Below are positions 3,098-52,941 of a stretch of 62,404 nt of DNA, one piece after another. The stretch lies in the IMG/VR virus record IMGVR_UViG_3300021963_000133, positions 1-62,404 of that record; one strand, given 5' to 3'. The notes below the pieces were generated by a model. The model did not search any database. It saw only the letters and a program-made list of their open reading frames with translations, and was not told the origin of the DNA. Within the stretch, counting starts at the first letter, position 1; every line of letters begins with the position of its first letter. A program made the position numbers and the translations under genes. This DNA is from a virus. Its lineage: Duplodnaviria > Caudoviricetes.

Positions 3098-3518
3098 TTG
3101 CGTCTAATATTTTCTTAATTTCGTCTTTAGTTTCCTGAATTAACCGGTAAACTGATGTTTCTCTGGTTGTATTAAAACGAAATTTATGTATATGATTATT
3201 ATATTGTCCTTTTACAGAAAGTTCACAAAATACTGTGTAACTTGGTCTCTTTTTTAAGAGCATAGAAAAATGTTTAACATTCCATGCCTGTTCTTTTGCA
3301 TCACCAATAAAAGCATATTCAACTTTGACGTATGCTGTTAAACTTAAATGGTCATCATTTAATTCTAAAAAATCATATCTTCTTTTAACACCATTTGTAA
3401 CAAGATACATCTCATAAGCAACAAAAGCACTGTTGTCTAGACAGTGCTTAAGTGTATTTAGTTCTAGTTTTGTTGAAATGTAGGGTGTTGGAAGATTGAG
3501 TGGTATCTCAATTAACAT
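3084..3518 (-). CDS. Hypothetical protein
   Basis: ORF track. Confidence 0.7.
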   Translation of the reverse strand: MLIEIPLNLPTPYISTKLELNTLKHCLDNSAFVAYEMYLVTNGVKRRYDFLELNDDHLSLTAYVKVEYAFIGDAKEQAWNVKHFSMLLKKRPSYTVFCELSVKGQYNNHIHKFRFNTTRETSVYRLIQETKDEIKKILDANGKD

Positions 3519-7748: not shown

Positions 7749-7976
7749 TTACTTCTTTTCCCAGAATAATTTATCATCAACAAAGACTTTAACAATGTTA
7801 TCACGTTGACCGATTAATTTCTGACAATATTGTTTAGGATATTTAATCTTGTCATAGACGACCTCATGTGCCATATAAACAACTCGAACGACTGACCCTC
7901 CAGGTGTTAGTGATAGTTCATTTGTTCTCATCTCGTCGGTTGGGACGTAGATATTTTTACTAGACAGTTCTTCCAT
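7749..7976 (-). CDS. Hypothetical protein
   Basis: ORF track; start adjusted to MEELSS. Confidence 0.65.
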   Translation of the reverse strand: MEELSSKNIYVPTDEMRTNELSLTPGGSVVRVVYMAHEVVYDKIKYPKQYCQKLIGQRDNIVKVFVDDKLFWEKK

Positions 7977-9264
7977 TTTCATATACATGTTTGATAACAG
8001 GGAATCTCAAAGAGAAACCGCCGTCTTGATTAATTGATTCTTCAAAATACTGAACGGTAATTGTTTTACCTAAAATATCTCCAGGACTCTTGAAGTAATG
8101 TCTTTTTTGTTCTTGGTTAAATCCACTACCAACTGCAACTCTACAACCTTTATGTTCTATCACTACATTTCGTAACATAACCTCTTCAACTTCAACTCCA
8201 TCAACAATAACTCGGTTAGGTCCCATTTGAACATCAACAACGACATATTCATTATCAAAGAATTGTTTAACTTTCATAATGTCATTGCTTCTTTTACCTT
8301 GGTATGGCGCATCTTTTCTCAACATCAAACCTTCCCATTTACTTGATGTTGCATGAGCTAAATGTTCTTGGAATTCGTCTTCAGTATCAACTTTAACCTG
8401 TTCTAATGGTGTAACAAAATCAAGTTCGCCAGCATAGTTTTCGAACCAAGCATTCATTGTTTCTTGTCTTTCACTAAATGTTCGAACTGAAGTTTGAGAA
8501 CCAAATTCTCCAACGGTTAACATGTCGAATACAACAAATTTTGGTCGACGAATAGTATGATTTTTACGTTTGATTTCCTTCATGATACCTTGGAAATCTT
8601 CATTACCATTTTCATCCATCATACAAATTTCTCCATCAAGTACCAAGTTCTGTGGAATTCGGCTTAATTCAGCTGTAATAGCTCCAAGAGTTTCAAATTC
8701 ATTTCCAGCTCTTGAGTAGAAATTAACATCTCCATTTGCATTCATTACGCAAATACAACGGCAACCATCTAATTTACGACTAACAAACCAACGATCTGAC
8801 CACTTAACTTTTTTCTTTGTATCATCATTATAAGTTGCAGCTAAAGCAACCTCGAATGTAGGAATACATCCAGGAATTACTTTATTAATCATTGATGTTG
8901 TAGAACGTGTTTTCAGATTACGGTCTAGAATCATCCAAATTATTTCCTCGAATTCAGAGTTTTCGCTAACAAACGAATTGACAGCTTGAATAGCGGAGTG
9001 ACCAGTGATATTACGATCGTTAAGGTCATCCAAAAGGCTAAAAATATTAGTATAGCGGTTTGATGTAGCAACCAAGTCATTTTTTGCTTGGCAATTTTTA
9101 GAAGTAACATAGTATTTCTTGAAAGGAGAGTAGGTATACTCAAATGCTTTTACTATCTCAGGATAACTAGCGAATTGCTTGATAACGTTGATTTTGTCAG
9201 TGTTAGAATTCGTTTCGTTTGATTTGTTAATAAAATCATTTAGTAAGCTAAGCGTCTTTTCCAT
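7960..9264 (-). CDS. ATP-dependent DNA ligase
   Basis: KLDG motif I, LDGE, EGLMLR, KVK, SLRFP motifs. Confidence 0.93.
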   Translation of the reverse strand: MEKTLSLLNDFINKSNETNSNTDKINVIKQFASYPEIVKAFEYTYSPFKKYYVTSKNCQAKNDLVATSNRYTNIFSLLDDLNDRNITGHSAIQAVNSFVSENSEFEEIIWMILDRNLKTRSTTSMINKVIPGCIPTFEVALAATYNDDTKKKVKWSDRWFVSRKLDGCRCICVMNANGDVNFYSRAGNEFETLGAITAELSRIPQNLVLDGEICMMDENGNEDFQGIMKEIKRKNHTIRRPKFVVFDMLTVGEFGSQTSVRTFSERQETMNAWFENYAGELDFVTPLEQVKVDTEDEFQEHLAHATSSKWEGLMLRKDAPYQGKRSNDIMKVKQFFDNEYVVVDVQMGPNRVIVDGVEVEEVMLRNVVIEHKGCRVAVGSGFNQEQKRHYFKSPGDILGKTITVQYFEESINQDGGFSLRFPVIKHVYENGRTV

Positions 9265-9386: not shown

Positions 9387-9932
9387 TTACTTGTTAATCG
9401 GCATCGTTATCTTATCTCCTTCTGGAGTACTGTAGATAATTCTGGTCGGTTCCAGGTCGAATGCTGAATCTTCTAGCATTTTAGTGTATTTCTCTCCTAG
9501 ACCTTTCTTAATATAAGCAATTGTCATGTGAGGGTGATAATCTGGAAAAGTATTGGTATGAGGTAATTCGGCTAGAGCTTCGTTACATTCATGCAGATTA
9601 CTGCCTTTAATATCAAACTTTAGGACATCATATTGGTTCTCAAAAAGAGAAGCATTATGTGCTTCACAAGCTTCAAATTTAAAATCTTTTACAATTTCCT
9701 TAATCATCTCTGGAGTAACTTCTTTATGTAAACCATAAAGTAGAGTACAGTGTGGCTCGTCTTCAATACCATAAGTTCTGTCTCCTTCTTCAGTGTATAA
9801 ATCCTCTTCTGCTATTTTAGCATGAATGTCTTTGATTTGTGGAAAATCAAAATATAGCATTGCACAGCCATAATCGTATGAATCTCCTGTTTTTTCAAGG
9901 ATAAATTCCTCAAATAATTTTACTGCTTTCAT
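9387..9932 (-). CDS. 2H phosphoesterase, Acb1/T4 gp57B-like (putative anti-CBASS)
   Basis: Two HxT motifs (PHCTLLYG, PHMTIAY); KLFEEF N-terminus. Confidence 0.75.
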   Translation of the reverse strand: MKAVKLFEEFILEKTGDSYDYGCAMLYFDFPQIKDIHAKIAEEDLYTEEGDRTYGIEDEPHCTLLYGLHKEVTPEMIKEIVKDFKFEACEAHNASLFENQYDVLKFDIKGSNLHECNEALAELPHTNTFPDYHPHMTIAYIKKGLGEKYTKMLEDSAFDLEPTRIIYSTPEGDKITMPINK

Positions 9933-14481: not shown

Positions 14482-14554
14482 TGATCCGAGAAGGACTCGA
14501 ACCTTCAACCTACACATTAGAAGTGTGTTGCTCTATCCATTGAGCTATCGAACC
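14482..14554 (-). tRNA. tRNA-Arg(TCT)
   Basis: Cloverleaf; anticodon loop CUUCUAA. Confidence 0.9.
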
Positions 14555-14561
14555 AAGGTTG

Positions 14562-14634
14562 AGCCTCCTGTCGGAATCGAACCAACGACCTACTGATTAC
14601 AAATCAGTTGCTCTACCAGCTGAGCTAAGGAGGC
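14562..14634 (-). tRNA. tRNA-Thr(TGT)
   Basis: Cloverleaf; loop UUUGUAA. Confidence 0.92.
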
Positions 14635-14639
14635 AATTA

Positions 14640-14700
14640 ACGGGATGTACTATCTGGGTTTGAGTAAAAGTCAAAAGATAATGTTTGCTGCAGACATCCC
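14640..14700 (-). ncRNA. Y-RNA-like family copy 1 (with Lys-UUU anticodon-like hairpin)
   Basis: GGGAUGU-CUGCAGCAAA...UUUGA-CUUUUAC-UCAAA...ACAUCCC-GU. Confidence 0.7.
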
Positions 14701-14708
14701 AATAAGGT

Positions 14709-14848
14709 ACAGGTTTCTGTTTTTGCGGACCAGCGTGTTTACCAATTTCACCACTCTCCAATGTTTCATAGTTAATTTTGTTGGAGAGGTAGGACTCGAA
14801 CCTACAGTATACCGGTTTTCTGTGCTTAAAATTTGCTGTAAGAAACCT
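14709..14848 (-). ncRNA. Y-RNA-like family copy 2 with circularly permuted tRNA domain (YrlA-like)
   Basis: AGGUUUC-UUACAGCAAA...T arm, looped acceptor stem CUCUCCA/UGGAGAG, D arm...GAAACCU-GU. Confidence 0.78.
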
Positions 14849-14856
14849 AATGTGTT

Positions 14857-15033
14857 TTAAGCTTTGTTAGCCTCAGAAACTGATGTTCTTACTGCTTGTG
14901 CAATTGCTTTAATTTCTTGCATTTGTTTTCTAACTCTTGTACCAGCAGACTTGTTACCTTTTTCAGTAAATTTAGTCGCTTCTTCACGAGCGATGTTCAA
15001 TGCTTCTTGGATTTGTTCTAATTGTTCTAACAT
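14857..15033 (-). CDS. Histone H1-like (Hc1-family) small basic protein, 58 aa
   Basis: Manual translation MLEQLEQIQEALNIAREEATKFTEKGNKSAGTRVRKQMQEIK...; GNKxAGTRxRK motif. Confidence 0.8.
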   Translation of the reverse strand: MLEQLEQIQEALNIAREEATKFTEKGNKSAGTRVRKQMQEIKAIAQAVRTSVSEANKA

Positions 15034-15057
15034 TTTGTTAATTTTATATTGTTACTA

Positions 15058-15086
15058 TTTATATCGGCGTTAACCGTTTTGTTTCA
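15058..15086 (-). promoter_or_regulatory. Class-II promoter TGAAAC-N17-TATA
   Basis: tgaaac + 17 nt + tataaa upstream of Hc1/Y-like RNA/tRNA unit. Confidence 0.6.
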
Positions 15087-15089
15087 TAA

Positions 15090-15325
15090 AAAGCTACACT
15101 TTCGTAGTAGCCACGTGAATTTTGTTAACACTAGTTAAGAAAATTCAACCGCGATTACGCGGCTAGTGCAAAGTTGTCGTTTGCTTGTACTAATCATCTC
15201 TCCCTACCACATTCTATACTGTCAAAAGCCTGGTCATCCCCATGATTTTATTTTAATTTGGTGGAGATGGCGGGAATCGAACCCGCGTCCAATACAGTGT
15301 CAATAAGTGTCATCAACAACTAGTT
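15090..15325 (-). ncRNA. ssrA: Two-piece (circularly permuted) tmRNA; tag ANDNFALAA
   Basis: Acceptor piece GACGCGGGUUCGAUUCCCGCCAUCUCCACCA ends at 15259 and precedes the 5' piece GGGGAUGAC..GAC starting at 15241; tag frame 15184-15155. Confidence 0.88.
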
Positions 15326-15326
15326 G

Positions 15327-15400
15327 TAGACAATGATGGACTCGAACCATCGACCTCCTCGGTATCAGCGAGGCGCTCTAACCAACTGAGCTAAATGTCT
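15327..15400 (-). tRNA. tRNA-Ile(GAT)
   Basis: Cloverleaf; loop CUGAUAC. Confidence 0.88.
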
Positions 15401-15975: not shown

Positions 15976-15981
15976 AAGTTA

Positions 15982-16039
15982 ACGGGATGCTGTTTTGCTT
16001 TTTCCAATAAAAGTTTTGTATATTTGCTGGAAGCATCCC
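15982..16039 (-). ncRNA. Y-RNA-like family copy 3
   Basis: GGGAUGC-UUCCAGCAAA...GCAUCCC-GU. Confidence 0.7.
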
Positions 16040-16060
16040 AAAGTTTTAACTTAACTCCAA

Positions 16061-16677: not shown

Positions 16678-16893
16678 TTACCATGAATCAACATCTGTTA
16701 AATCAAGTTCAGTTTTTGTTTTGTGACTATAAACTTCAATTCCATTTCCAATTCCAGTTGGAGTTATCTTCCATGTGAAAGTTCCATACTCTCCATAAAG
16801 AGCTTTAATATGTCCTTTCCATTCATCATACATTGCCTGCTGTTTATCATTAAGCACTTCATGAATCTCGTAATTTTTCTTTTTATCTGCCAT
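16678..16893 (-). CDS. Hypothetical protein
   Basis: ORF track; start adjusted to MADKKK. Confidence 0.7.
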   Translation of the reverse strand: MADKKKNYEIHEVLNDKQQAMYDEWKGHIKALYGEYGTFTWKITPTGIGNGIEVYSHKTKTELDLTDVDSW

Positions 16894-17576
16894 TATTCCC
16901 AAATTTGATAAAACTTTCTAAATAATGCTACAACGTCCATTGCATCTTCAATTGCATTGTGTGTAACAATACCTTCAATTCCAGCACGTTCTTTACAAAG
17001 AGCTAAACCTGGTGCAGCATCATCATTTTTCCAATCAATGTATAAAACTGAAGGGTCCAATGTTCTACCACGAGCTTTAAGACATTGCTTCCATCTTGGT
17101 AAACGCTCTAAGAACTTATTATCAAAGTTTGCAAAGTTCTTACCTGCGGCATTGAAATAATAAGGTTTCATTTTTGAAGTTAGGGCTGGGTAAGATTTAC
17201 CATTTACAATTTCCATGTGTCCAGTTAAATCAAACTTACCATCTAAGGCTCCATTCTCCCATAAGAATTGAAAGATTCGTTTAGCAACATCTTCTTCATA
17301 CATGTATTCTCGACCAGTTCTAATCTCAATTTCCTTTCGTTCCTCATCGGTACGAGCCATCTTGTATTCTAAGATGTCGGCAATCAATTGTCGATTCATG
17401 TTAATTGCAAAGATTTCGCCTTCAATTCTCTCTCTAACAATTGCAATTTCAAGTTGTGGTAATTCCTTTAAAGGTTTTACATCTACCGTATCTTCAACCA
17501 CTAATCCAATTGATAGAGTTTGAGTGTTTTCATTGTCAATTCCAGTAGTTTCAATATCAATACTTACGTATTTCAT
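16893..17576 (-). CDS. DEDDh 3'-5' exonuclease
   Basis: SIDIETTG, NFANFD, HNAIEDA. Confidence 0.85.
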   Translation of the reverse strand: MKYVSIDIETTGIDNENTQTLSIGLVVEDTVDVKPLKELPQLEIAIVRERIEGEIFAINMNRQLIADILEYKMARTDEERKEIEIRTGREYMYEEDVAKRIFQFLWENGALDGKFDLTGHMEIVNGKSYPALTSKMKPYYFNAAGKNFANFDNKFLERLPRWKQCLKARGRTLDPSVLYIDWKNDDAAPGLALCKERAGIEGIVTHNAIEDAMDVVALFRKFYQIWE

Positions 17577-17581
17577 AGTTT

Positions 17582-18172
17582 CTATTTTAAAAATTCTAAT
17601 ACTTTCTCTTTAATTCCCGATTGTTTGATACCTTCCATTGCTCTTGGAGTCAAGACAAAGTTTTCTAATCCCCATTTACGTTCAATGTTATCATAGTTCT
17701 TAGCCATGTTCAGGTCATCAATTGCAACCCAATGAGTAACTTCTGGATGTTGCTGTAACCAATACAATATTTCAACATGTCTCTCTTGTTCTAACAACCA
17801 AGTTCGACTCCAATCGATATCCTCATCTTTAAGATGTGCTGCTCCACCTTCATTATATAAATCTTTACAAAATGATGTTGCATCAATTGGACGCTTAATG
17901 ATTCCTTGTGACTCATAGTAATCACCCAGTTCCTCAACAGTTGCCCATCTTTTCCAGTCTGAAGATACTACTATCTCCGCACCAGTTTCCTCAATGATTG
18001 AATTAAGTACTGCGACCGCCTTCTTATTAAAGTTATCAAAGCGATATTCGACATCTAATGCCATAACAGATTGGCTCATCTTACGACCAGCTTTTTGTTG
18101 TTTCTTGAATCGACCTCCCCATTCCGTAGAAAGGCAAATTACTCCATCATTATCTAAAAATATTACTTTCAT
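17582..18172 (-). CDS. HAD-family phosphatase (RNA-repair-associated type)
   Basis: FLDNDGV, VVSSDWK, VAIDD. Confidence 0.82.
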   Translation of the reverse strand: MKVIFLDNDGVICLSTEWGGRFKKQQKAGRKMSQSVMALDVEYRFDNFNKKAVAVLNSIIEETGAEIVVSSDWKRWATVEELGDYYESQGIIKRPIDATSFCKDLYNEGGAAHLKDEDIDWSRTWLLEQERHVEILYWLQQHPEVTHWVAIDDLNMAKNYDNIERKWGLENFVLTPRAMEGIKQSGIKEKVLEFLK

Positions 18173-19442: not shown

Positions 19443-19444
19443 GT

Positions 19445-19522
19445 TGCGATTAGAGGAATCGAACCTCCCAGGGGTATATCTACCAAATCAACTCATGAGA
19501 TTGACCTTACACCGATATCGCA
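19445..19522 (-). ncRNA. Atypical tRNA-like RNA (CAU loop, aberrant D arm)
   Basis: GCGAU/AUCGC acceptor, GAGGUUCGAUUCCUC T arm, UCAAU-CUCAUGA-GUUGA arm. Confidence 0.55.
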
Positions 19523-19527
19523 ATATA

Positions 19528-19649
19528 ACAGGATGGGTTTTTGTACGTGCTCTACCAACTGAGCTATTGATTCCGAAGAATCAAGCCGGATTCGAACCGA
19601 CGACCACGAGGTTAACAGCCTAGATTTTACTTTTTGCAGTAACCATCCT
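19528..19649 (-). ncRNA. Y-RNA-like family copy 4 with permuted tRNA domain and Asn-GUU anticodon hairpin
   Basis: AGGAUGG-UUACUGCAAA..AGG-CUGUUAA-CCU..T arm, UUGAUUC-UUCG-GAAUCAA, D arm..CCAUCCU-GU. Confidence 0.8.
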
Positions 19650-19660
19650 AAAGTTTTTAG

Positions 19661-21990: not shown

Positions 21991-22017
21991 TAACATTTTT
22001 AAAATATTTCAACCACT

Positions 22018-22127
22018 GCTGATAGAATTGGATTCGAACCAATACGAAGGGATTAGGCTTTCGCTTTATTTCTTGTCTTCAACCCCGAGACAGGAGGTCG
22101 TGTCTGCCAATTTCACCATCTACCAGC
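22018..22127 (-). ncRNA. Atypical tRNA: class-II body, GUC anticodon loop, oversized variable arm
   Basis: UGGUAGA/UCUAUCA acceptor, Leu-type D loop, ACCUC-CUGUCUC-GGGGU, ~38-nt variable region. Confidence 0.65.
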
Positions 22128-22140
22128 AACAATTTTAATG

Positions 22141-22885: not shown

Positions 22886-22957
22886 TAGTCAATAAAGGAC
22901 TCGAACCCTTATTTCCCGATCCGTAGTCGGGTGTTCTATCCGTTGAACTAATCGACT
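22886..22957 (-). tRNA. tRNA-Arg(ACG)
   Basis: Loop CUACGGA. Confidence 0.88.
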
Positions 22958-22962
22958 AGAAG

Positions 22963-23036
22963 TGGACCATTCAGGGCTCGAACCTGAGACCTTCTCGTTA
23001 TGAGCGAGCTGCTCTAACCGACTGAGCTAAAGGTCC
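22963..23036 (-). tRNA. tRNA-Ile2(CAT), lysidine type (probable)
   Basis: Loop CUCAUAA on GGACCUU-UAGCUCAGUCGGUUAGAGC Ile-type body. Confidence 0.78.
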
Positions 23037-33763: not shown

Positions 33764-34063
33764 CTAGATTTGTTTCCATTCCTTTTTGTAGACCGCTTCC
33801 CAATGATTTCTATACTCTCGAACATTAATCATCTTAATAGTATATTGCCAGTATTCTGTCTCATACCAAATGGTAAGATTTAATGTCAATGCGGATGGAG
33901 GAACGTGACAATCTTTAGCCCATTTAAAAAGTTGTTTGATATTTCCCTTCTGTCTAATTTTTTTAGCAAAAGTAGGAAAATCACAATCCCAAATTTCAGG
34001 ATATTGGGTCAGTATTCCTGACCCAACTCCTTTATATCCTATATTATAGGCAACTTGCTTCAT
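33764..34063 (-). CDS. Hypothetical protein
   Basis: ORF track. Confidence 0.65.
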   Translation of the reverse strand: MKQVAYNIGYKGVGSGILTQYPEIWDCDFPTFAKKIRQKGNIKQLFKWAKDCHVPPSALTLNLTIWYETEYWQYTIKMINVREYRNHWEAVYKKEWKQI

Positions 34064-35193
34064 TAATGAGAATCTCCAACGTTATGCTTCTCTCCATAGA
34101 TTAAGTAATCTGGATTGATGACTTTAGCTACTTTGTTTCTTTCACCAGTATGGTACTTAATTACAATTCCCTCTTCTGGTACTTTAGTTCCTGGAATAAA
34201 GTTGTTAAATACAAATTTGTCCTGTACTTCTTGAGACCAGTTTCCAAAATGTAAGATTTCAACATATTTCAATTCTAAAATATTTGCAATTAACAATTTA
34301 GCATTGATTGGACTTAAGTATTCTCCATTCTCTTTAACATCGAATCCTGCAAACTGAATATCTTTTAAACCATACTCATAATTCTTTTGAATTCCAGCTC
34401 CGTAGATTTCTCCATAGATTGTAATTCCATCTCCAATTTCTGGTTCCATTGAATTGCTCTTAACATATTCCCATAACCTCTTCTTGATTTCATATTTGTC
34501 TGCAATTTCATACCATACATTAGTATCATAGAAACCTTGAGAGTCTGAACCTTTCTCGACATTATGAGAACCAACTACGAATTCATAACCAATCCATTTG
34601 TCAGCCAAACCAACAAATTTCTTAACCTTGTCCCAAAATGTTAATTTAGTTTTCTTAACGATTCCATAACGTGCATTTGTACCGTGGATCTTACGAGTAA
34701 TTTCTACCGTATCCTCTTCAGTAAACATTCCAGCAACATTTTTCAAGTTTGGAAACTTGTAGTAAACATGGAAGTTTGGATTGTCTTGATAACGAATCTT
34801 TTTACCATTAGACAATTGAACTTGTTTAACTGGCGGTTCGTACTTAGTAATGTCCATTGCATTCATCATGTCCTTTCCATCGTAATAGTTTTCCATGAAT
34901 GGAATATGCTTTAATGGAATCAATAAACATTCAGAGTAAACTCCACGTAACTTTACAGTACGTACTCTTTGTCCTTTACGAAGATAACCAGTTACCTCCA
35001 TATCGTCTGATAATATTTGAGGAATCACAGCATCGGTAGTTGCAATAACGATTAAATCGCCTGCTTTATACTCTCCTTTTTTAGTGATTGCATTCCATCC
35101 TCCAACAATTGCCAATTCAATGTTGTCTGCACCTTCAATAGGTTTAATTTCGTTAATTGTTGCTACGTAGCAAACTGAATTTTGATTTTCCAT
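34063..35193 (-). CDS. RNA ligase (DRB0094-like family)
   Basis: N-terminal PIEGADNIE/KLRGVYS domain; KIHGTN, YGEIYG, FDV, EGIVIK, KVIN. Confidence 0.9.
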   Translation of the reverse strand: MENQNSVCYVATINEIKPIEGADNIELAIVGGWNAITKKGEYKAGDLIVIATTDAVIPQILSDDMEVTGYLRKGQRVRTVKLRGVYSECLLIPLKHIPFMENYYDGKDMMNAMDITKYEPPVKQVQLSNGKKIRYQDNPNFHVYYKFPNLKNVAGMFTEEDTVEITRKIHGTNARYGIVKKTKLTFWDKVKKFVGLADKWIGYEFVVGSHNVEKGSDSQGFYDTNVWYEIADKYEIKKRLWEYVKSNSMEPEIGDGITIYGEIYGAGIQKNYEYGLKDIQFAGFDVKENGEYLSPINAKLLIANILELKYVEILHFGNWSQEVQDKFVFNNFIPGTKVPEEGIVIKYHTGERNKVAKVINPDYLIYGEKHNVGDSH

Positions 35194-39970: not shown

Positions 39971-40214
39971 ACGGGATCGTTATTCGTGATTTTCTTCCCG
40001 GCGGAATAACCCTGTTATCGTCTTCGGCTTTGACTTTCGCGAGCGTCTACTAATCTTCGACCCATCCTACTTATCACCTATTGGGGTGGTTATGACGTTT
40101 GTCCATTTTTTATCCTGGTTAGACTTCCATTTGCTCTTCGATTGTACTTTGATATAATCTCTGTTGAATCTAAGCGATCATAGTTGTATGTGTACTTTTT
40201 GCTGTACCGATCCA
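39971..40214 (-). ncRNA. Y-RNA-like family copy 5 (long, ~245 nt)
   Basis: UGGAUCG-GUACAGCAAA...CGAUCCC-GU. Confidence 0.68.
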
Positions 40215-40215
40215 C

Positions 40216-40277
40216 CTGGTTCCTTGTCTTCCGTTGTTATCTAAATTGAGGGGTATATGTGTTGCTGTAAGGAACCC
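40216..40277 (-). ncRNA. Y-RNA-like family copy 6
   Basis: GGGUUCC-UUACAGCAAC...AAGGAACCA-GG; about 15 nt downstream of TROVE-like stop. Confidence 0.7.
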
Positions 40278-40292
40278 AATTTCTTTATATAT

Positions 40293-41732
40293 CTAAACAA
40301 CTGGAGCGTATCTTTCACTCAAAATTGTTTTGTCCATGATTTGTTGTGGAGACTGAATATCTCCTCCAAGTAAACTTGTCATAATTGCTGGAGAGAATCC
40401 AGAAACTAAAGCAGTTCCTTGAGTATCAAATGCAACTGGTACTCCACCATTTCTGGATTGGATATTCCAATATACAATTTGAGGCATTTTGTAACCTGCA
40501 TCTGCATACATTTTCTCAATCATTTGCTGAGCAGTTGGATTCCATTCGGTTTTTTCTTCTCGACTGTACCAACCTCCTCGTGAATTAGTTGCCGCATTAA
40601 ATTCCATATCCGATAGGATTAAGATTTTATTTGGCATCTCATCTTGAGATAATTTATGTTTAGTGGCCTGATCTAAGATCAGTTTAAAAGTCGCCTCGAG
40701 ATTCGTTGACATACCCCAATCAGCATGTGCCATCTGTGCGTAGCGATCTTTTAATGAACCACTTAATACTTGTAATTGTGGGTTACTTGAGAATGTGATG
40801 AATGCATCTTTGAAAGGACCTTCATTTCTTTCAGAAATATAAAGACCTAATGAGATTGCAACATCCATACAAGTTACGTTTTTGCTACCTCCGGCTGGAG
40901 TTGACATAGAACCTGAAACGTCCACAACTGGTAAAATCATATCGTTTGCGCCTTCCATGTAATTTGGAAGAGCTTTCCATTGTTCGTTTGCAACAGTTGA
41001 GTTACCATGGTTCAATGACTTAGTCACATCGTATGGGTACACTGCACCTGCATTAATTTTAGCTTCTCCTTTCACTAATGATTGGATATAAGCTGAATAA
41101 CTTTCGTATGCATTTTTACCAAAGGCTTTTTGGTATCTTGCTGAAGCTACTGATGGTAATTTACCGAATTCAATTGAATCCCATTCTTTAGCACACATTT
41201 TAGTTTCAACAACATTAGTTAAACCTACAAGAGATTTACGGTATTGTTTTGGCGACATACCTGTAAATTTACGTAACTTCTCAGCTACTGCACCTTTACG
41301 TGGCATCCATTTTGCACATAAACCATTTTCTGCGATGATTGCATCTGAGATTAAAGTAAATGCTTCTTTCTCTAAAAGAGTTCCAGTAAGAACTAATAAG
41401 TCATCCCAACGACCATATTCTGGAATTAAGTGTAGATTTGGTTTTAGAGCCAAATCGTGGTTTTCGGCCAAGTAAGCGATAATGTCTTTAAAAACTTGTC
41501 TCTCTCCAGCTCCACCTCGAACGTCTCTAGCCCAAAACAAAAGTTTCATAGCACGTTTTGGATCTTCATTAAATGCTAAAGAAAAGGTACGAAGCAAACG
41601 TTCTTTGTCTTGTCCTCTCATTGCACCAATGTTAAAGAATAAATCAACACATGCATTCAACGAAGTTGAATTGGTTGCCATTCCATTTTCTGTTAAAATG
41701 TCTTCTTGTCTTAAAGCGTCTACAAATTTCAT
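40293..41732 (-). CDS. TROVE/Ro60-like protein with vWA domain (DUF2828-like)
   Basis: LTENG, RDVRGGAGER, YGRWDDL, AKWMPR; MIDAS DVSGSM, ILSDMEF, VSGFSP. Confidence 0.85.
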   Translation of the reverse strand: MKFVDALRQEDILTENGMATNSTSLNACVDLFFNIGAMRGQDKERLLRTFSLAFNEDPKRAMKLLFWARDVRGGAGERQVFKDIIAYLAENHDLALKPNLHLIPEYGRWDDLLVLTGTLLEKEAFTLISDAIIAENGLCAKWMPRKGAVAEKLRKFTGMSPKQYRKSLVGLTNVVETKMCAKEWDSIEFGKLPSVASARYQKAFGKNAYESYSAYIQSLVKGEAKINAGAVYPYDVTKSLNHGNSTVANEQWKALPNYMEGANDMILPVVDVSGSMSTPAGGSKNVTCMDVAISLGLYISERNEGPFKDAFITFSSNPQLQVLSGSLKDRYAQMAHADWGMSTNLEATFKLILDQATKHKLSQDEMPNKILILSDMEFNAATNSRGGWYSREEKTEWNPTAQQMIEKMYADAGYKMPQIVYWNIQSRNGGVPVAFDTQGTALVSGFSPAIMTSLLGGDIQSPQQIMDKTILSERYAPVV

Positions 41733-51378: not shown

Positions 51379-52863
51379 TTATTTTAATTTTGTGCGAATT
51401 GCAGTTAAAGTAGTTTGATTTCCAAAAGTACCATTTTCATAGATACATCTCATATCAGTTGCTTTCTCTCCGGACCAAGTTTGTTGATCGACTAATTTAT
51501 AACCATCTTCTCCAGTTGTAATTCTTAGCAAACCTTTTGCAGATTTTTTAACACCATCATCTGTGATTGGATCTTTGAAGATTTCACGACCTTCTCCATT
51601 TACTTCAACATAAGTTGCTTTCATTGCAAAACCAAATGTATCTCTAGTGTTATATTGGTAAGTAAAACTTCCAACTCCTAATACGATATTTGTACTTGCA
51701 AATCCTTTAGCTTCTAATCTTGTAAAGATTTGTTCTGCACGATCTAATGTGATACTGTCTCCGTAGATTGCTCCAATATGTGGATCTAGGACTTTGTAAC
51801 CTTGTTCGTTGATAGTTCCACCGAACACATCCCAAAGTAATTCAATAACTCCTTTTACTTTAGGTTCATTGTGAACATCTTTCGATTTCAATAATTCTGA
51901 ATCTATCATAATTGGAGGTTTTGAGTTCAATCCACAAATAATATCAACTGGATCTCCAGAGTCAGGACGAATAACTACTTTACCATCTCTTGCAAGGATC
52001 TCTTCTTTAAGAGTAACTAAATGTTCAGTACAAACTTTCCATAAATCCCAAGTATCTGAAACAATAGAAAGAATTCCAGTTGGATATGTTTCCATTAAGT
52101 TTCGGAAAGTTCCAATCTCATCTTCTTTAGATCCAGCACACATAACTGAATGTTCAGTTGCATTTACTGATCCAGCTACAAATCCATCTTCATTGTAGAA
52201 TTTACGGGCTCCAAAGATTGCAGGTAAACTATCAGAACCAGAAAAACTTGTTAAGTGACCAAGACCTGAAGAGATAGTTGCATCAATTGAATCTAGACCT
52301 CTCATTGAGAAATCATGTGCTTGCCAATCTACGAACCAACCTTTTTCAGCGTCAGTTTTCTCTTGCCATGCTGTAAATAATTTACGGTAAGCATGTGCGA
52401 TAGTTGCAGAAGTCATTGGTTTCCACAACAAGTTAGAAATAACTGTCTCTAGATAATTTGTTACCCAATAGAAATCTGGATGTGTATTGTAAATTGTTAA
52501 GACTGGAACCTTCATTGGAACTAAAGCTCCTTCTTCGATTGCTTTAACATTAATAGGCAAGTAACCTAAATCATGAAGAGCTTCAAAATGACTAACATCA
52601 TAATCAGTGTTTAAGTACATTGATAATTCTCGTTTCATTTCTCCACAAACTTCGTCTTTTGGACGACTAAAGAAATCTTTTTCAAATGCCTCGTGGATTT
52701 GTTTAATTACCATTTGTTGTCCAAATGATACTAATTCGTCACAACCTTTAGGAGCATACTTATTACTTCTAGGAGTAAAGTTTGAATAAACCAACGTAGT
52801 TCCTTTTGGATATTGTTGGTGATGTCCTGTTTTGTAACCGTCTGTTAAAAATAATGGATTCAT
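51379..52863 (-). CDS. nadV: Nicotinamide phosphoribosyltransferase-like (Nampt/Namat)
   Basis: TDGYK.GH..QYP, HDFSMRG, ATEHSVM, VSDTWD, RPDSGDP, YGDSIT; start MNPLF. Confidence 0.9.
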   Translation of the reverse strand: MNPLFLTDGYKTGHHQQYPKGTTLVYSNFTPRSNKYAPKGCDELVSFGQQMVIKQIHEAFEKDFFSRPKDEVCGEMKRELSMYLNTDYDVSHFEALHDLGYLPINVKAIEEGALVPMKVPVLTIYNTHPDFYWVTNYLETVISNLLWKPMTSATIAHAYRKLFTAWQEKTDAEKGWFVDWQAHDFSMRGLDSIDATISSGLGHLTSFSGSDSLPAIFGARKFYNEDGFVAGSVNATEHSVMCAGSKEDEIGTFRNLMETYPTGILSIVSDTWDLWKVCTEHLVTLKEEILARDGKVVIRPDSGDPVDIICGLNSKPPIMIDSELLKSKDVHNEPKVKGVIELLWDVFGGTINEQGYKVLDPHIGAIYGDSITLDRAEQIFTRLEAKGFASTNIVLGVGSFTYQYNTRDTFGFAMKATYVEVNGEGREIFKDPITDDGVKKSAKGLLRITTGEDGYKLVDQQTWSGEKATDMRCIYENGTFGNQTTLTAIRTKLK

Positions 52864-52887
52864 ATATTGTATCTTTATTAATTTGTT

Positions 52888-52904
52888 ATATGTAAATATA
52901 AACA
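52888..52904 (-). promoter_or_regulatory. Class-I promoter repeat
   Basis: atatgtaaatataaaca. Confidence 0.75.
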
Positions 52905-52941
52905 ATGTTTTTCAATCGGAGAAACATTTAGTGAGTTATTT

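What the first reader, a model, noticed from the sequence alone, without database searches (positions are those of the whole stretch)
14709..14848. Second permuted tRNA mimic built on a Leu-type D loop
Seen: ACCGG..GUAGG-UUCGAGU-CCUAC-CUCUCCA [~20-nt loop] UGGAGAG-UG-GUGAAAUUGGUAAACAC-G-CUGGU. The 3' half precedes the 5' half and the handle replaces the anticodon loop. Its sequence is unrelated to the 19528 copy, implying independent capture of different tRNAs into the same handle (inference). The open acceptor loop could be cut by RNase P/Z to give a two-piece RNA that accepts CCA.
Basis: partly seen in the sequence, partly recalled or inferred. Interest (0 to 1): 0.72.

Follow-up and report, generated by a model that had tools for sequence, protein, structure and literature searches.

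The report
Phage tRNA-mimic RNA on Ro-like handle
This is a real, conserved small phage RNA in which a leucine-tRNA look-alike with its anticodon loop missing sits on a constant stem, and that stem marks a large, apparently undescribed RNA family found beside a phage relative of the Ro60 RNA-binding protein.

Summary
On the minus strand, 14851-14708 has the order: handle 5' strand, UUACAGCAA, ACCGG, T arm, 7-bp acceptor stem closed by a 21-nt loop, Leu-type D arm, CUGGU, handle 3' strand.

It is not chance. A covariance model built only from 17 units of other phages hits it full length (65.9 bits, E 2.5e-12). Nine distinct homologues keep every helix.

The handle is a widespread constant module: an 8-bp helix whose inner 4 bp covary, plus an invariant CAGCAA. 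Of 80 5' motifs, 71 have the exact complement downstream, against 4 of 80 upstream. Its cargo varies: anticodon-arm-like hairpins, acceptor-less tRNAs, or permuted T/acceptor/D modules.

Units co-occur with a DUF2828+DUF7788 protein (window 40293-41732) and often lie next to its gene. The predicted fold of this protein matches Ro60 full length. The link also holds in cultured phages such as Felix O1, LeBron and Listeria, Staphylococcus and Bacillus phages: 25 units on the gene's strand against 1 opposite.

Best reading: a Y-RNA-like (YrlA-type) tRNA mimic of a divergent phage Ro-like ribonucleoprotein. Binding, processing and charging are untested. I rate it a new variant of a known kind.

The parts
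14708..14851 (-). The whole unit: handle plus permuted Leu-type tRNA-like body (the finding)
   Evidence: Model R1, built without window sequences, matches full length at 65.9 bits, E 2.5e-12. Sequence read.
14842..14848 (-). Handle 5' strand AGGUUUC
   Evidence: Pairs with 14717-14711 in 7 Watson-Crick pairs. Homologues have AGGUUCC/GGAACCU, a compensatory change. Family-wide covariation.
14833..14841 (-). Conserved single-stranded motif UUACAGCAA (CAGCAA invariant)
   Evidence: CAGCAA is invariant in 17 of 17 units of alignment A4, including Felix O1, LeBron, Porthos and PBC2. It is present in all 9 homologues.
14812..14816 (-). ACCGG, the strand that corresponds to the 3' side of a tRNA anticodon stem
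   Evidence: Pairs with CUGGU at 14733-14729. Homologues keep the pairing through C-G / U-G / U-A and G-U / G-C changes.
14789..14805 (-). T arm GUAGG-UUCGAGU-CCUAC
   Evidence: Rfam tRNA and YrlA local matches. R1 alignment.
14754..14788 (-). Acceptor-like stem: CUCUCCA / UGGAGAG (7 bp), then A at the discriminator place, closed by a variable loop of 21 nt (14781-14761)
   Evidence: The stem is kept in 9 of 9 homologues (one has C.A at the last pair). The loop is 17-21 nt and variable, and always starts ACAA.
14735..14751 (-). D arm GUG-AAAUUGGUAAA-CAC, class-II (Leu) type
   Evidence: Best matches among the window's 24 tRNAs are tRNA-Leu(UAG) and tRNA-Leu(UAA).
14729..14733 (-). CUGGU, partner of ACCGG
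14711..14717 (-). Handle 3' strand GAAACCU, followed by G-U-A
14639..14703 (-). Adjacent minimal unit: handle GGGAUGU/ACAUCCC, CAGCAA, and an insert with a hairpin UUUGA-CUUUUAC-UCAAA that resembles an anticodon arm (UUU)
   Evidence: R1 28.9 bits, E 5e-4. Python scans.
15981..16042 (-). Minimal unit (GGGAUGC/GCAUCCC, CAGCAA)
   Evidence: R1 34.3 bits, E 3.1e-5..
19527..19652 (-). Sibling unit ('19528 copy'): same handle, class-I tRNA-like body with a UUCG-closed 6-bp acceptor-like hairpin
   Evidence: R1 91.8 bits, E 3.9e-18. Rfam YrlA 39.4 bits, full length, below the gathering score of 69.
40214..40280 (-). Handle unit A, starting 13 nt after the stop of the Ro-like gene
   Evidence: R1 23.6 bits, E 0.0078. 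Sequence. Same arrangement in contig G003.
39974..40213 (-). Handle unit B (GGAUCG/CGAUCC, GUACAGCAA) with a ~210-nt insert, followed by a terminator-like hairpin
   Evidence: Homologue at L025 2873-3108. No Rfam family.
40293..41732 (-). Gene of the 479-aa DUF2828+DUF7788 protein, a structural homologue of Ro60 and the proposed binding partner of the handle
   Evidence: Pfam 7.6e-33 and 2e-55. AlphaFold model pLDDT 92, pTM 0.90. The top 12 Foldseek PDB hits are all Ro60/TROVE, full length.

Best explanation
The element is a non-coding RNA gene of a jumbo-phage fragment. It is transcribed with the neighbouring Hc1-like gene, a second small handle RNA and two tRNAs. It has two modules.

Module 1 is a constant 'handle'. 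The 5' and 3' ends pair in an 8-bp helix (UAGG-N4 / N4'-CCUG). Next to it lies an internal loop with the invariant CAGCAA on the 5' strand and an A-rich 3' strand.

Module 2 is a tRNA-Leu-like body (T arm, 7-bp acceptor stem closed by a loop, Leu-type D arm, anticodon stem). Its anticodon loop is replaced by the handle.

The most likely working: the handle is the binding site of the phage's own Ro60-like ring protein (DUF2828+DUF7788, 40293-41732), as the bulged terminal helix of a Y RNA binds Ro60. The tRNA-like body is the effector module. It presents a tRNA shape to tRNA-recognising factors: RNase P, the CCA-adding enzyme, modification enzymes, LeuRS, or host tRNA-targeting nucleases. The phage would thus field a set of Ro-like ribonucleoproteins carrying different tRNA parts, probably for tRNA/RNA surveillance and repair or as decoys during host attack on the translation apparatus.

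Shown here: the structure, its conservation, family membership, the protein's fold, and co-occurrence and adjacency of units and gene.

Inferred: protein binding, processing, and function.
For: (1) Structure and conservation. R1 was built from 17 foreign units and hits the element at 65.9 bits, E 2.5e-12. RNAalifold on those 17 gives 23 pairs, 20 of them with compensatory changes. The 9 distinct homologues (from 13 other viral loci plus the window) keep the handle, anticodon-type stem, variable arm and acceptor stem through compensatory changes.

(2) The handle is a family. The pattern search found 20 viral loci. Of 80 distinct 5' motifs, 71 have the exact complementary word plus CCYG within 340 nt downstream. 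Controls: 4 of 80 upstream, and a mean of 2.2 (max 7) with permuted words. There are 21 different N4 words.

(3) Ro-like partner.
- Pfam gives DUF2828+DUF7788.
- The fold model has pLDDT 92.
- The 12 best PDB matches are all Ro60/TROVE over 514-587 columns (E 8e-10 to 3e-6, TMq 0.37-0.61). The following matches are vWA domains only.
- The 4 best profile hits in PDB sequences are TROVE/Ro60, but weak (E 0.02-0.11).

(4) Linkage.
- DUF2828 is in 7 of 10 other unit-bearing contigs, including 2 of 2 that are at least 90% complete. It is in 0 of 14 control genomes.
- TROVE itself is in 0 of 5 contigs and 0 in the window.
- Units abut the gene in the window (13 nt downstream), in G004 and G001 (directly upstream), and in G003 (downstream, after one 106-aa ORF).

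(5) Same link in cultured phages. There are 710 phage records with the protein. In 9 loci examined, a strict scan gives 25 units on the gene's strand against 1 on the other. At least 2 units occur in 7 of 9: Felix O1, LeBron, Listeria LMTA-148, Campylobacter F358, Staphylococcus S-CoN_Ph2, Enterococcus Porthos, Bacillus PBC2.

(6) YrlA likeness. The sibling unit and the LeBron unit next to gp53 hit Rfam YrlA full length (39.4 and 39.8 bits). The element's core aligns to YrlA positions 30-81.

(7) RNA libraries. Contigs from metatranscriptomic runs of 3 studies cover the element (X1 14728-14806, X3 14573-15068, X5 14577-14743 and 14771-15092).

(8) Context. The window also has RNA-repair genes: RNA ligases, HAD_SAK_2.
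Against: - No binding experiment or RNA-protein model was possible.
- This particular unit lies about 25 kb from the Ro-like gene. Adjacency holds for other units, not for this one.
- The canonical Ro60-binding motif of YrlA (GNCGAAN0-1G; PMC4201824, passages) is absent. Rfam's YrlA gathering score is not reached (15 bits local here).
- Three of 10 other unit-bearing contigs show no DUF2828, though all three are fragments of 18-38% completeness.
- G002 has the gene, but no unit was found within the ~1.5 kb fetched on either side.
- Vibrio phage V09 has only weaker 6-bp units. The Yersinia jumbo phage has no convincing unit.
- Folding energy of the unit is not better than shuffles (z -0.60).
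- RNA-library contigs may derive from contaminating DNA and give no ends.
- In Bacillus phage PBC2 a handle encloses what ARAGORN calls a whole tRNA-Ile. That would also fit a leader-trailer processing role for the handle.
Confidence: 0.6

Rival explanations
1. The handle is a leader-trailer processing or stability helix used by host RNases (RNase III/E/P-type maturation of a tRNA operon). The tRNA-like RNAs then act, or are discarded, without any Ro-like protein. The neighbourhood with DUF2828 only reflects that both sit in tRNA regions.
For: - Units are packed 4-6 nt from tRNAs and from each other in tRNA operons.
- In PBC2 a handle flanks a tRNA-Ile that ARAGORN calls whole.
- The DUF2828 gene is itself usually next to tRNA clusters.
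Against: - An invariant single-stranded CAGCAA, conserved from actinobacterial to proteobacterial and firmicute phages whose hosts differ in RNases, suggests a phage-encoded reader.
- Units occur next to the gene even where no tRNA is nearby: LeBron (3 units directly after gp53) and Staphylococcus phage.
- Units were found only in contigs or phages of the DUF2828 set, apart from short fragments.
Confidence: 0.2
2. It is a true permuted tRNA-Leu gene. The transcript is cut in the handle, the ends are ligated by a phage RNA ligase to close an anticodon loop, and RNase P/Z open the acceptor loop to give a decoding tRNA, as in the permuted tRNA genes of the red alga Cyanidioschyzon (recalled).
For: - The 3' half lies before the 5' half.
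- All tRNA-Leu body elements are present, including the 7-bp acceptor stem and A at the discriminator place.
- RNA ligase genes are in the window.
Against: - No conserved 7-nt loop with a Leu anticodon can be assembled from the segments next to the anticodon-type stem. These segments differ among the 9 homologues.
- The same handle carries inserts that can never become tRNAs: hairpins only, or a 210-nt insert.
- The window already has two normal tRNA-Leu genes.
Confidence: 0.05
3. The handle RNAs bind the host's canonical Ro60 (TROVE) protein rather than the phage DUF2828 protein.
For: YrlA-like topology. Some bacteria have TROVE proteins (controls).
Against: - The GNCGAA motif is missing.
- Co-occurrence is with DUF2828, not TROVE (0 of 5 contigs and 0 in the window).
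- Hosts such as E. coli K-12, Listeria and Staphylococcus are not known to me to carry Ro60 (recalled, not tested).
Confidence: 0.05
4. It is a decaying by-product of tandem tRNA-Leu duplication or rearrangement, with no function.
For: A permuted order arises trivially from the junction of two tandem tRNA copies. Dimeric tRNAs also score with YrlA-type models (caveat stated in PMC4201824, passages).
Against: - Nine distinct homologues have compensatory changes and intact helices.
- The handle is precise and conserved.
- The full-length CM hit has E 2.5e-12.
- The element is present in RNA libraries.
Confidence: 0.03

Closest known systems
YrlA, bacterial and phage Y-RNA-like RNAs bound by Ro60/Rsr (Rfam RF02553; Chen et al. 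2014, PMC4201824)
   Same: - Terminal 5'/3' helix with an internal loop bearing a conserved 5'-strand motif.
- tRNA-like module in the order (V) - T arm - closed acceptor-like stem - D arm.
- Encoded on the same strand near the gene of a ring-shaped HEAT+vWA protein.
- Several different RNAs per locus.
- M. smegmatis YrlA, with a 7-bp acceptor stem, is cut by RNase P and receives CCA (passages).
   Different: - The handle motif is CAGCAA, not GNCGAAN0-1G.
- The partner candidate is DUF2828+DUF7788, which Pfam does not class as TROVE.
- Rfam scores are below the gathering score (15 bits local here; 39.4 for the sibling).
- Here the helix replaces the anticodon loop of a Leu-type body with a true anticodon-type stem.
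- The family also carries inserts unknown for YrlA (anticodon-arm-like hairpins alone, acceptor-less tRNAs) and forms arrays inside tRNA operons.
Thermus phage phiLo Ro60 with Yrl1/Yrl2 (PMC12135203; PDB 9KOP, 9L5Y)
   Same: A phage-encoded Ro60-type ring protein with Y-like RNA genes directly beside its gene. 9KOP is the best structural match of the window's protein (E 8.3e-10).
   Different: - phiLo Ro60 is a TROVE protein.
- Its Yrls carry the CGAA motif in a bulge (passages).
- No tRNA-like body was mentioned in the passages I saw.
Permuted tRNA genes of Cyanidioschyzon merolae (recalled, no call)
   Same: The 3' half is encoded before the 5' half, and the two are joined across the acceptor end by a short linker.
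   Different: Those mature into decoding tRNAs through a circular intermediate. Here there is no anticodon loop to restore, and the ends are held in a conserved protein-type handle.
Two-piece (permuted) tmRNA, as at 15064-15351 of this window
   Same: Permuted tRNA-like domain. The acceptor region is opened by processing to give a two-piece RNA. It lies in the same operon region.
   Different: The element has no tag reading frame and no pseudoknots. Rfam tmRNA models do not match it.

Membership tests
YrlA (Rfam RF02553 / Chen 2014) | tRNA-like module in the order T arm - closed acceptor-like stem - D arm, between the two strands of a terminal helix | tested here: met
   Sequence. YrlA local alignment to model positions 30-81. 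R1 alignment.
YrlA (Rfam RF02553 / Chen 2014) | Score at or above Rfam's gathering score (69 bits) | tested here: not met
   15.0 bits, E 1.7, local only. The sibling unit scores 39.4 bits.
YrlA (Rfam RF02553 / Chen 2014) | GNCGAAN0-1G motif near the 5' end (presumed Ro60 contact) | tested here: not met
   The 5' strand reads UUAGGUUUCUUACAGCAAAU. The motif is taken from PMC4201824 passages.
YrlA (Rfam RF02553 / Chen 2014) | Within ~4 kb of, and on the same strand as, a TROVE-domain Ro60 gene | tested here: not met
   No TROVE (PF05731) in the window or in 5 related contigs. A Ro60-fold DUF2828 gene lies on the same strand, but ~25 kb away from this unit.
YrlA (Rfam RF02553 / Chen 2014) | Bound by Ro60/Rsr; carries tRNA-type modifications | not testable with these tools
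   Needs immunoprecipitation and modification mapping.
CAGCAA-handle RNAs (defined here; model R1) | Terminal helix closing the unit, covarying among units | tested here: met
   7 Watson-Crick pairs here, with a compensatory variant in homologues. 71 of 80 against 4 of 80 in the control. 8 handle pairs with compensatory changes.
CAGCAA-handle RNAs (defined here; model R1) | Invariant CAGCAA 1-4 nt after the 5' strand of the helix | tested here: met
   Located at 14838-14833. Invariant in 17 of 17 units of A4.
CAGCAA-handle RNAs (defined here; model R1) | Significant full-length match to a model built without the window's sequences | tested here: met
   65.9 bits, E 2.5e-12, model positions 1-122 of 122. 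E-values are rough because calibration was shortened.
CAGCAA-handle RNAs (defined here; model R1) | Same genome and strand as a DUF2828+DUF7788 gene | tested here: met
   Gene at 40293-41732 on the minus strand. 7 of 10 other contigs have the gene. 25 units against 1 in cultured phages.
tRNA (RF00005) | Contiguous cloverleaf with an anticodon loop | tested here: not met
   ARAGORN makes no call here. Rfam tRNA matches only the T arm, at 13.1 bits.
Permuted tRNA gene (Cyanidioschyzon type) | Joining of the termini restores a 7-nt anticodon loop with an anticodon | tested here: not met
   The segments flanking the anticodon-type stem are 25-26 nt and 10-11 nt, differ among the 9 homologues, and hold no conserved Leu anticodon loop.
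Two-piece tmRNA | Tag reading frame and pseudoknots | tested here: not met
   ARAGORN and Rfam tmRNA models hit only 15064-15351.
Ro60/TROVE (for the partner protein) | HEAT-repeat ring plus C-terminal vWA domain | tested here: met
   Model pLDDT 92, pTM 0.90. The 12 best PDB matches are all Ro60/TROVE over the full length. Invariant D271-x-S273-x-S275, T343 and D375 fit a MIDAS site; the motif is recalled.
Ro60/TROVE (for the partner protein) | Match to Pfam TROVE (PF05731) | tested here: not met
   Only DUF2828, DUF7788 and a weak VWA_2 appear at E up to 10. The genome-wide TROVE search is negative.

The most novel reading that the evidence does not exclude
Phages from many lineages run a second, so far undescribed Ro/Y-type ribonucleoprotein system. 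A DUF2828 ring protein reads a CAGCAA handle, and the handle serves as a universal socket for interchangeable tRNA parts: an anticodon arm alone, a tRNA without an acceptor stem, or a tRNA without an anticodon.

The Leu-type member found here would be opened in its acceptor loop by RNase P and 3' trimming, receive CCA, and be leucylated. This is plausible because LeuRS does not read the anticodon (recalled). The result would be a charged but non-decoding two-piece tRNA held on the ring.

Together the set would act as decoys or sensors for host nucleases that cut tRNA anticodon loops or acceptor ends, coupled to the phage's RNA ligases.
Probability: 0.15. Interest if true: 0.88.

Novelty: new variant of a known kind. 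Interest (0 to 1): 0.72.

Why it matters
Ro60 with Y RNAs is a classic but functionally still puzzling ribonucleoprotein. Bacterial YrlA showed that its RNA partner can mimic tRNA.

The present element leads to a much larger and more modular relative.
- The protein family has 6679 clusters at 50% identity and occurs in 710 cultured phage records. There it is annotated at best as 'Ro-like RNA-binding protein'.
- No RNA partner for it turned up in the literature I could search.
- A simple RNA signature, a closing helix plus CAGCAA, lies beside its gene and throughout phage tRNA clusters.

If the link is real, three things follow. It assigns a ligand to a widespread domain of unknown function. 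It explains many 'gaps', and some odd 'tRNAs', in phage tRNA clusters. It also offers tractable laboratory models (Felix O1-like coliphages, LeBron in M. smegmatis, Listeria and Staphylococcus phages) for asking what tRNA mimicry by Ro-type particles is for, including a possible role against tRNA-targeting defences.

Tried and rejected
- The search for related loci with the neighbouring 311-aa ORF found nothing.
- blastn of the units against cultured phages gave no match. blastn of the wider region found only tRNA similarity.
- Thermodynamic stability is not distinctive for this unit (z -0.60). The sibling has z -1.80.
- TROVE searches were negative, which removed the simple 'ordinary YrlA next to Ro60' reading.
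- Rfam at permissive thresholds gave no other family for the unit or for the 240-nt unit B.
- Burroughs and Aravind 2016 (PMC5062991) is not held. Whether it already links DUF2828 to Ro and tRNA-like RNAs could not be checked.
- The supplementary tables of Chen 2014, which list 22 phages, are closed and may overlap with phages named here.
- RNA-run laying: contigs cover the unit, and two bridge the acceptor loop. Contigs show neither ends nor strand, and DNA may be present, so nothing can be said about processing. Gaps in cover are not evidence.
- The test for anticodon-arm-like hairpins used a loose unit definition that includes many chance matches. It found 18 of 120 against a shuffle mean of 2.2 (max 6), so it is only an enrichment.
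- The promoter/terminator scan found no site above chance between the Hc1 gene and the tRNAs.
- Complex prediction was not used because it does not take RNA.
Full report
**What the window is.** The window is a linear IMG/VR virus record of 62,404 bases that CheckV rates 29% complete, so it is a fragment of a phage of roughly 200 kb. Almost all genes lie on the minus strand. ARAGORN finds 24 tRNAs and a permuted tmRNA at 15064-15351. Rfam at gathering score finds the same and nothing else.

**The observation.** Read on the minus strand, positions 14851-14708 hold the following, in order:
- AGGUUUC (14848-14842)
- UUACAGCAA (14841-14833)
- a 16-nt A/U-rich stretch
- ACCGG (14816-14812) and a 6-nt variable region
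- a T arm, GUAGG-UUCGAGU-CCUAC (14805-14789)
- CUCUCCA (14788-14782), A, and 20 further loop bases
- UGGAGAG (14760-14754) and UG
- a D arm, GUG-AAAUUGGUAAA-CAC (14751-14735), then G
- CUGGU (14733-14729) and 11 A-rich bases
- GAAACCU (14717-14711)

The two outer heptamers pair perfectly. So do the acceptor strands (7 bp). ACCGG pairs with CUGGU (5 bp, one G-U).

Among the 24 tRNAs of the window, the 5' half is most like the two tRNA-Leu genes. In relatives the short variable region is a Leu-type long arm, GUCGAAAGAC or AUCGAAAGAU.

Folding energy by itself is unremarkable: z = -0.60, and 49 of 200 shuffles fold as well. The case therefore rests on comparison.

**Conservation of this element.** A pattern that requires the permuted order found 13 other viral loci. 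With the window these give 9 distinct sequences.
- The pattern fixed the T arm, acceptor strands and D arm, so those say nothing.
- The free parts are informative. The handle occurs as AGGUUUC/GAAACCU or AGGUUCC/GGAACCU.
- The anticodon-type stem is kept through C-G, U-G and U-A at one pair and G-U or G-C at another.
- The variable arm changes G-C to A-U.
- The acceptor loop is 17-21 nt and free to vary, except for a constant ACAA start.

**The handle is a family.**
- A search for the shared 5' motif plus a T loop found 20 viral loci.
- In them the unit reads UUUAGG-N4-(U/G)U(A/U)CAGCAA ... A-rich ... N4'-CCUGUU, often in tandem and 4-6 nt from tRNAs.
- In an unbiased count, 71 of 80 distinct 5' motifs have the exact complement of their own N4 word plus CCYG within 340 nt downstream. 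Controls give 4 of 80 upstream, and a mean of 2.2 (max 7) when N4 words are dealt from other units. There are 21 different N4 words.

The inserts differ:
- (i) 50-64-nt units with a small hairpin. In a subset this hairpin has 5 bp and a 7-nt loop of the type N-U-NNN-R-N. With a loose definition that admits many chance units, this is 18 of 120 against a shuffle mean of 2.2.
- (ii) D arm + anticodon arm + T arm, without an acceptor stem.
- (iii) T arm + closed acceptor-like hairpin + D arm, about 105-120 nt.
- (iv) Larger inserts.

I aligned 17 type-(iii) units, none from the window, including four from cultured phages.
- CAGCAA is invariant in all 17.
- RNAalifold predicts the handle, T arm, acceptor hairpin and D arm: 23 pairs, 20 with compensatory changes.
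- The covariance model R1 built from them hits the finding full length at 65.9 bits, E 2.5e-12.
- It hits the sibling at 19652-19527 at 91.8 bits.
- It hits three small units: 16042-15981 (34.3 bits), 14703-14639 (28.9 bits) and 40280-40214 (23.6 bits).
- Two hits on tandem tRNAs (14516-14617, 22914-23027) are the known false-positive type for such models.

**Relation to YrlA.**
- The sibling unit matches Rfam YrlA over the whole model, but below threshold: 39.4 bits against a gathering score of 69.
- The finding's core aligns locally to YrlA positions 30-81 at 15 bits, E 1.7.
- Passages of Chen et al. 2014 (PMC4201824) define YrlA by three things: a tRNA-like T/acceptor/D module, a GNCGAAN0-1G motif near the 5' end, and a position within 4 kb of a TROVE-domain Ro60 gene.
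- They report that M. smegmatis YrlA, the one with a 7-bp acceptor stem, is cut by RNase P and gains CCA in vivo.
- The topology is met here. The motif, the score and the TROVE neighbour are not. TROVE is absent from the window and from 5 related contigs, two of them 96-100% complete.

**The Ro-like protein.**
- ORF 40293-41732 (479 aa) is Pfam DUF2828 + DUF7788.
- An AlphaFold model from 86 sequences has pLDDT 92 and pTM 0.90.
- Foldseek against the PDB gives Ro60/TROVE structures as the best 12 matches: phiLo phage Ro60, Xenopus and human Ro60, and Deinococcus Rsr. They are aligned over 514-587 columns with E 8e-10 to 3e-6 and TMq 0.37-0.61. Everything after them matches the vWA domain only.
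- A profile search of PDB sequences also ranks four TROVE/Ro60 entries first, though weakly (E 0.02-0.11).
- The family is large: 6679 clusters at 50% identity.
- It is present in 710 cultured phage records, where mycobacteriophage annotators already call it 'Ro-like RNA binding protein'. The Ro-likeness of the protein is therefore not new.

**Linkage of handle and protein.**
- In the window, two handle units start 13 nt after the gene's stop (40280-40214 and 40213-39974) and are followed by a terminator-like hairpin.
- In contig G003 the same two units follow the gene after one 106-aa ORF.
- In G004 three units, and in G001 two, lie directly upstream of the gene.
- In G002 no unit was found in the ~1.5 kb fetched on each side.
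- DUF2828 is present in 4 of 5 unit-bearing contigs and 3 of 5. That is 7 of 10, including 2 of 2 that are at least 90% complete. The three without it are fragments of 18-38% completeness.
- It rings in 0 of 14 control genomes.

I fetched 9 cultured phages chosen across the hit list. A strict scan required a 7-bp perfect helix, at most 4 nt before CAGCAA, and a unit of at most 135 nt. It finds 25 units on the gene's strand and 1 on the opposite strand:
- Felix O1: 4, in the tRNA cluster that starts 166 nt after the gene.
- LeBron: 3, directly after gp53. The middle one is a sub-threshold YrlA hit of 39.8 bits.
- Listeria LMTA-148: 3, directly upstream.
- Campylobacter F358: 2, upstream.
- Staphylococcus S-CoN_Ph2: 3, directly downstream.
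- Enterococcus Porthos: 2.
- Bacillus PBC2: 7.
- Vibrio V09: none under the strict rule, only 6-bp versions.
- Yersinia jumbo phage: one match inside a coding region, which I take as chance.

The LeBron, Felix O1 and V09 proteins are DUF2828+DUF7788 without TROVE.

**Expression.**
- One index search found 24 runs.
- Contigs of four metatranscriptomic runs from four studies were laid.
- Three cover the element: X1 record 5 (14728-14806), X3 record 20 (14573-15068, one contig from tRNA-Thr through both units into the Hc1 gene), and X5 records 29 and 30.
- Two of these bridge the acceptor loop.
- This fits transcription but does not prove it. DNA can be present in such libraries, and contigs show no ends. 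It says nothing on processing.
- The unit starts 5 nt after the stop of the Hc1-like gene and is followed at 4-6-nt spacing by the small unit, tRNA-Thr and tRNA-Arg. No terminator-like site lies in between. Co-transcription and release by tRNA processing are the natural inference.

**Interpretation.** The best-supported reading is a Y-RNA-like RNA of a divergent Ro-type particle. The handle, in place of the Ro60-binding bulged helix, would bind the DUF2828 ring protein. The Leu-type tRNA body would be the effector module. I put 0.6 on this.

Rivals:
- 0.2: the handle is mainly a processing or stability helix independent of the protein. The PBC2 case favours this, since a handle encloses a tRNA-Ile that ARAGORN calls whole.
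- 0.05: a real permuted tRNA-Leu precursor. No anticodon loop can be restored.
- 0.05: the host's TROVE Ro60 is the binding partner.
- 0.03: rearrangement debris.

In its favour are the 7-bp stem, the A at the discriminator place, the long variable loop, and the M. smegmatis precedent. In addition, LeuRS does not use the anticodon (recalled), so an anticodon-less Leu body could in principle be charged.

**Novelty.** The principle is known: a Ro-type protein with a tRNA-mimicking Y-like RNA, also in phages. Three things appear new:
- the CAGCAA handle;
- its pairing with the DUF2828 family;
- the modular set of tRNA parts it carries, and its spread through phage tRNA clusters.

Searches gave nothing on such RNAs: 'DUF2828' (5 unrelated papers), Ro60/phage/Y RNA, Ro-like/phage/tRNA, and two further searches. 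The LeBron screen paper names gp53 Ro-like and mildly toxic, but the passages I saw mention no RNA.

Limits of these searches: subscription journals are not covered, Burroughs and Aravind 2016 is not held, and the supplements of Chen 2014 are closed.

Noticed in passing
window 15064-15351 (-): Permuted (two-piece) tmRNA gene with tag ANDNFALAA (ARAGORN; Rfam tmRNA_permuted 73.1 bits). It overlaps the start of tRNA-Ile. A phage-borne permuted tmRNA hints at a host that uses two-piece tmRNA (alphaproteobacterial type is recalled, not tested).
   Followed up: no
window 19444-19523 (-): A further tRNA-like object lies directly after the sibling unit. It has a T arm and a 5-bp acceptor-like stem, a hairpin with loop CUCAUGA (CAU at the anticodon place), and no clear D arm. 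ARAGORN does not call it. The Rfam tRNA-Sec model gives 21.6 bits (E 0.058). A terminator-like hairpin follows at ~19400-19365.
   Followed up: partly
window ~22017-22129 (-): An uncalled tRNA-like gene lies between tRNA-Ser and tRNA-Leu. It has an 8-bp acceptor stem, a class-II D arm (GGUGAAAUUGGCAGACAC), a T arm, and a ~35-nt extra segment. ARAGORN and Rfam missed it. R1 gives only 18.4 bits (E 0.11).
   Followed up: no
window 39974-40213 (-); L025 2873-3108: Handle unit B carries a ~210-nt insert that is conserved in contig G003 and has no Rfam match. Similarly long handle units occur in G001 (L024 643-858) and Vibrio phage V09 (L038 1588-1831). This may be a separate conserved RNA riding on the handle.
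   Followed up: partly
L038 4957-4996 (Vibrio phage V09): A handle-like hairpin (GACAUU / AAUGUC with UUACAGCAA) encloses the ribosome-binding site and start codon of the DUF2828 gene itself. This would allow the protein to repress its own translation.
   Followed up: no
L045 3269-3391 (Bacillus phage PBC2): A tRNA-Ile(GAU) called by ARAGORN (3310-3384) lies wholly inside a handle unit. Some annotated phage tRNAs may therefore be handle-embedded. The record also lists its tRNAs on the strand opposite to the one ARAGORN finds.
   Followed up: partly
window 14812-14848 (-): The 5' handle strand can alternatively pair with an internal near-copy of the 3' strand (GAAAACC just before ACCGG). In the L016-type homologues both change together (GGUUCC with GGAAAC). 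This may be a duplication trace or an alternative conformation.
   Followed up: no
window 14639-14703 (-) and homologues in L016, L026, L029: The small unit next to the finding carries the hairpin UUUGA-CUUUUAC-UCAAA, a look-alike of a tRNA-Lys(UUU) anticodon arm. Other units carry loops CUUGUAA, CUUCUAA and CUGGAAA.
   Followed up: partly
window 7960-9264, 9387-9932, 16893-18172, 34063-35193, 51379-52905 (-): RNA-repair and NAD-salvage gene set: ATP-dependent ligase, two RNA-ligase-like proteins, an RNase T-like exonuclease, a HAD_SAK_2 phosphatase and a NAPRTase-like enzyme.
   Followed up: no
window 15040-15075 (-): A TATAAATA word lies about 25 nt upstream of the Hc1-like gene's start. This is the T4 late-promoter consensus (recalled). 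It is a possible start of the transcript that includes the finding.
   Followed up: no
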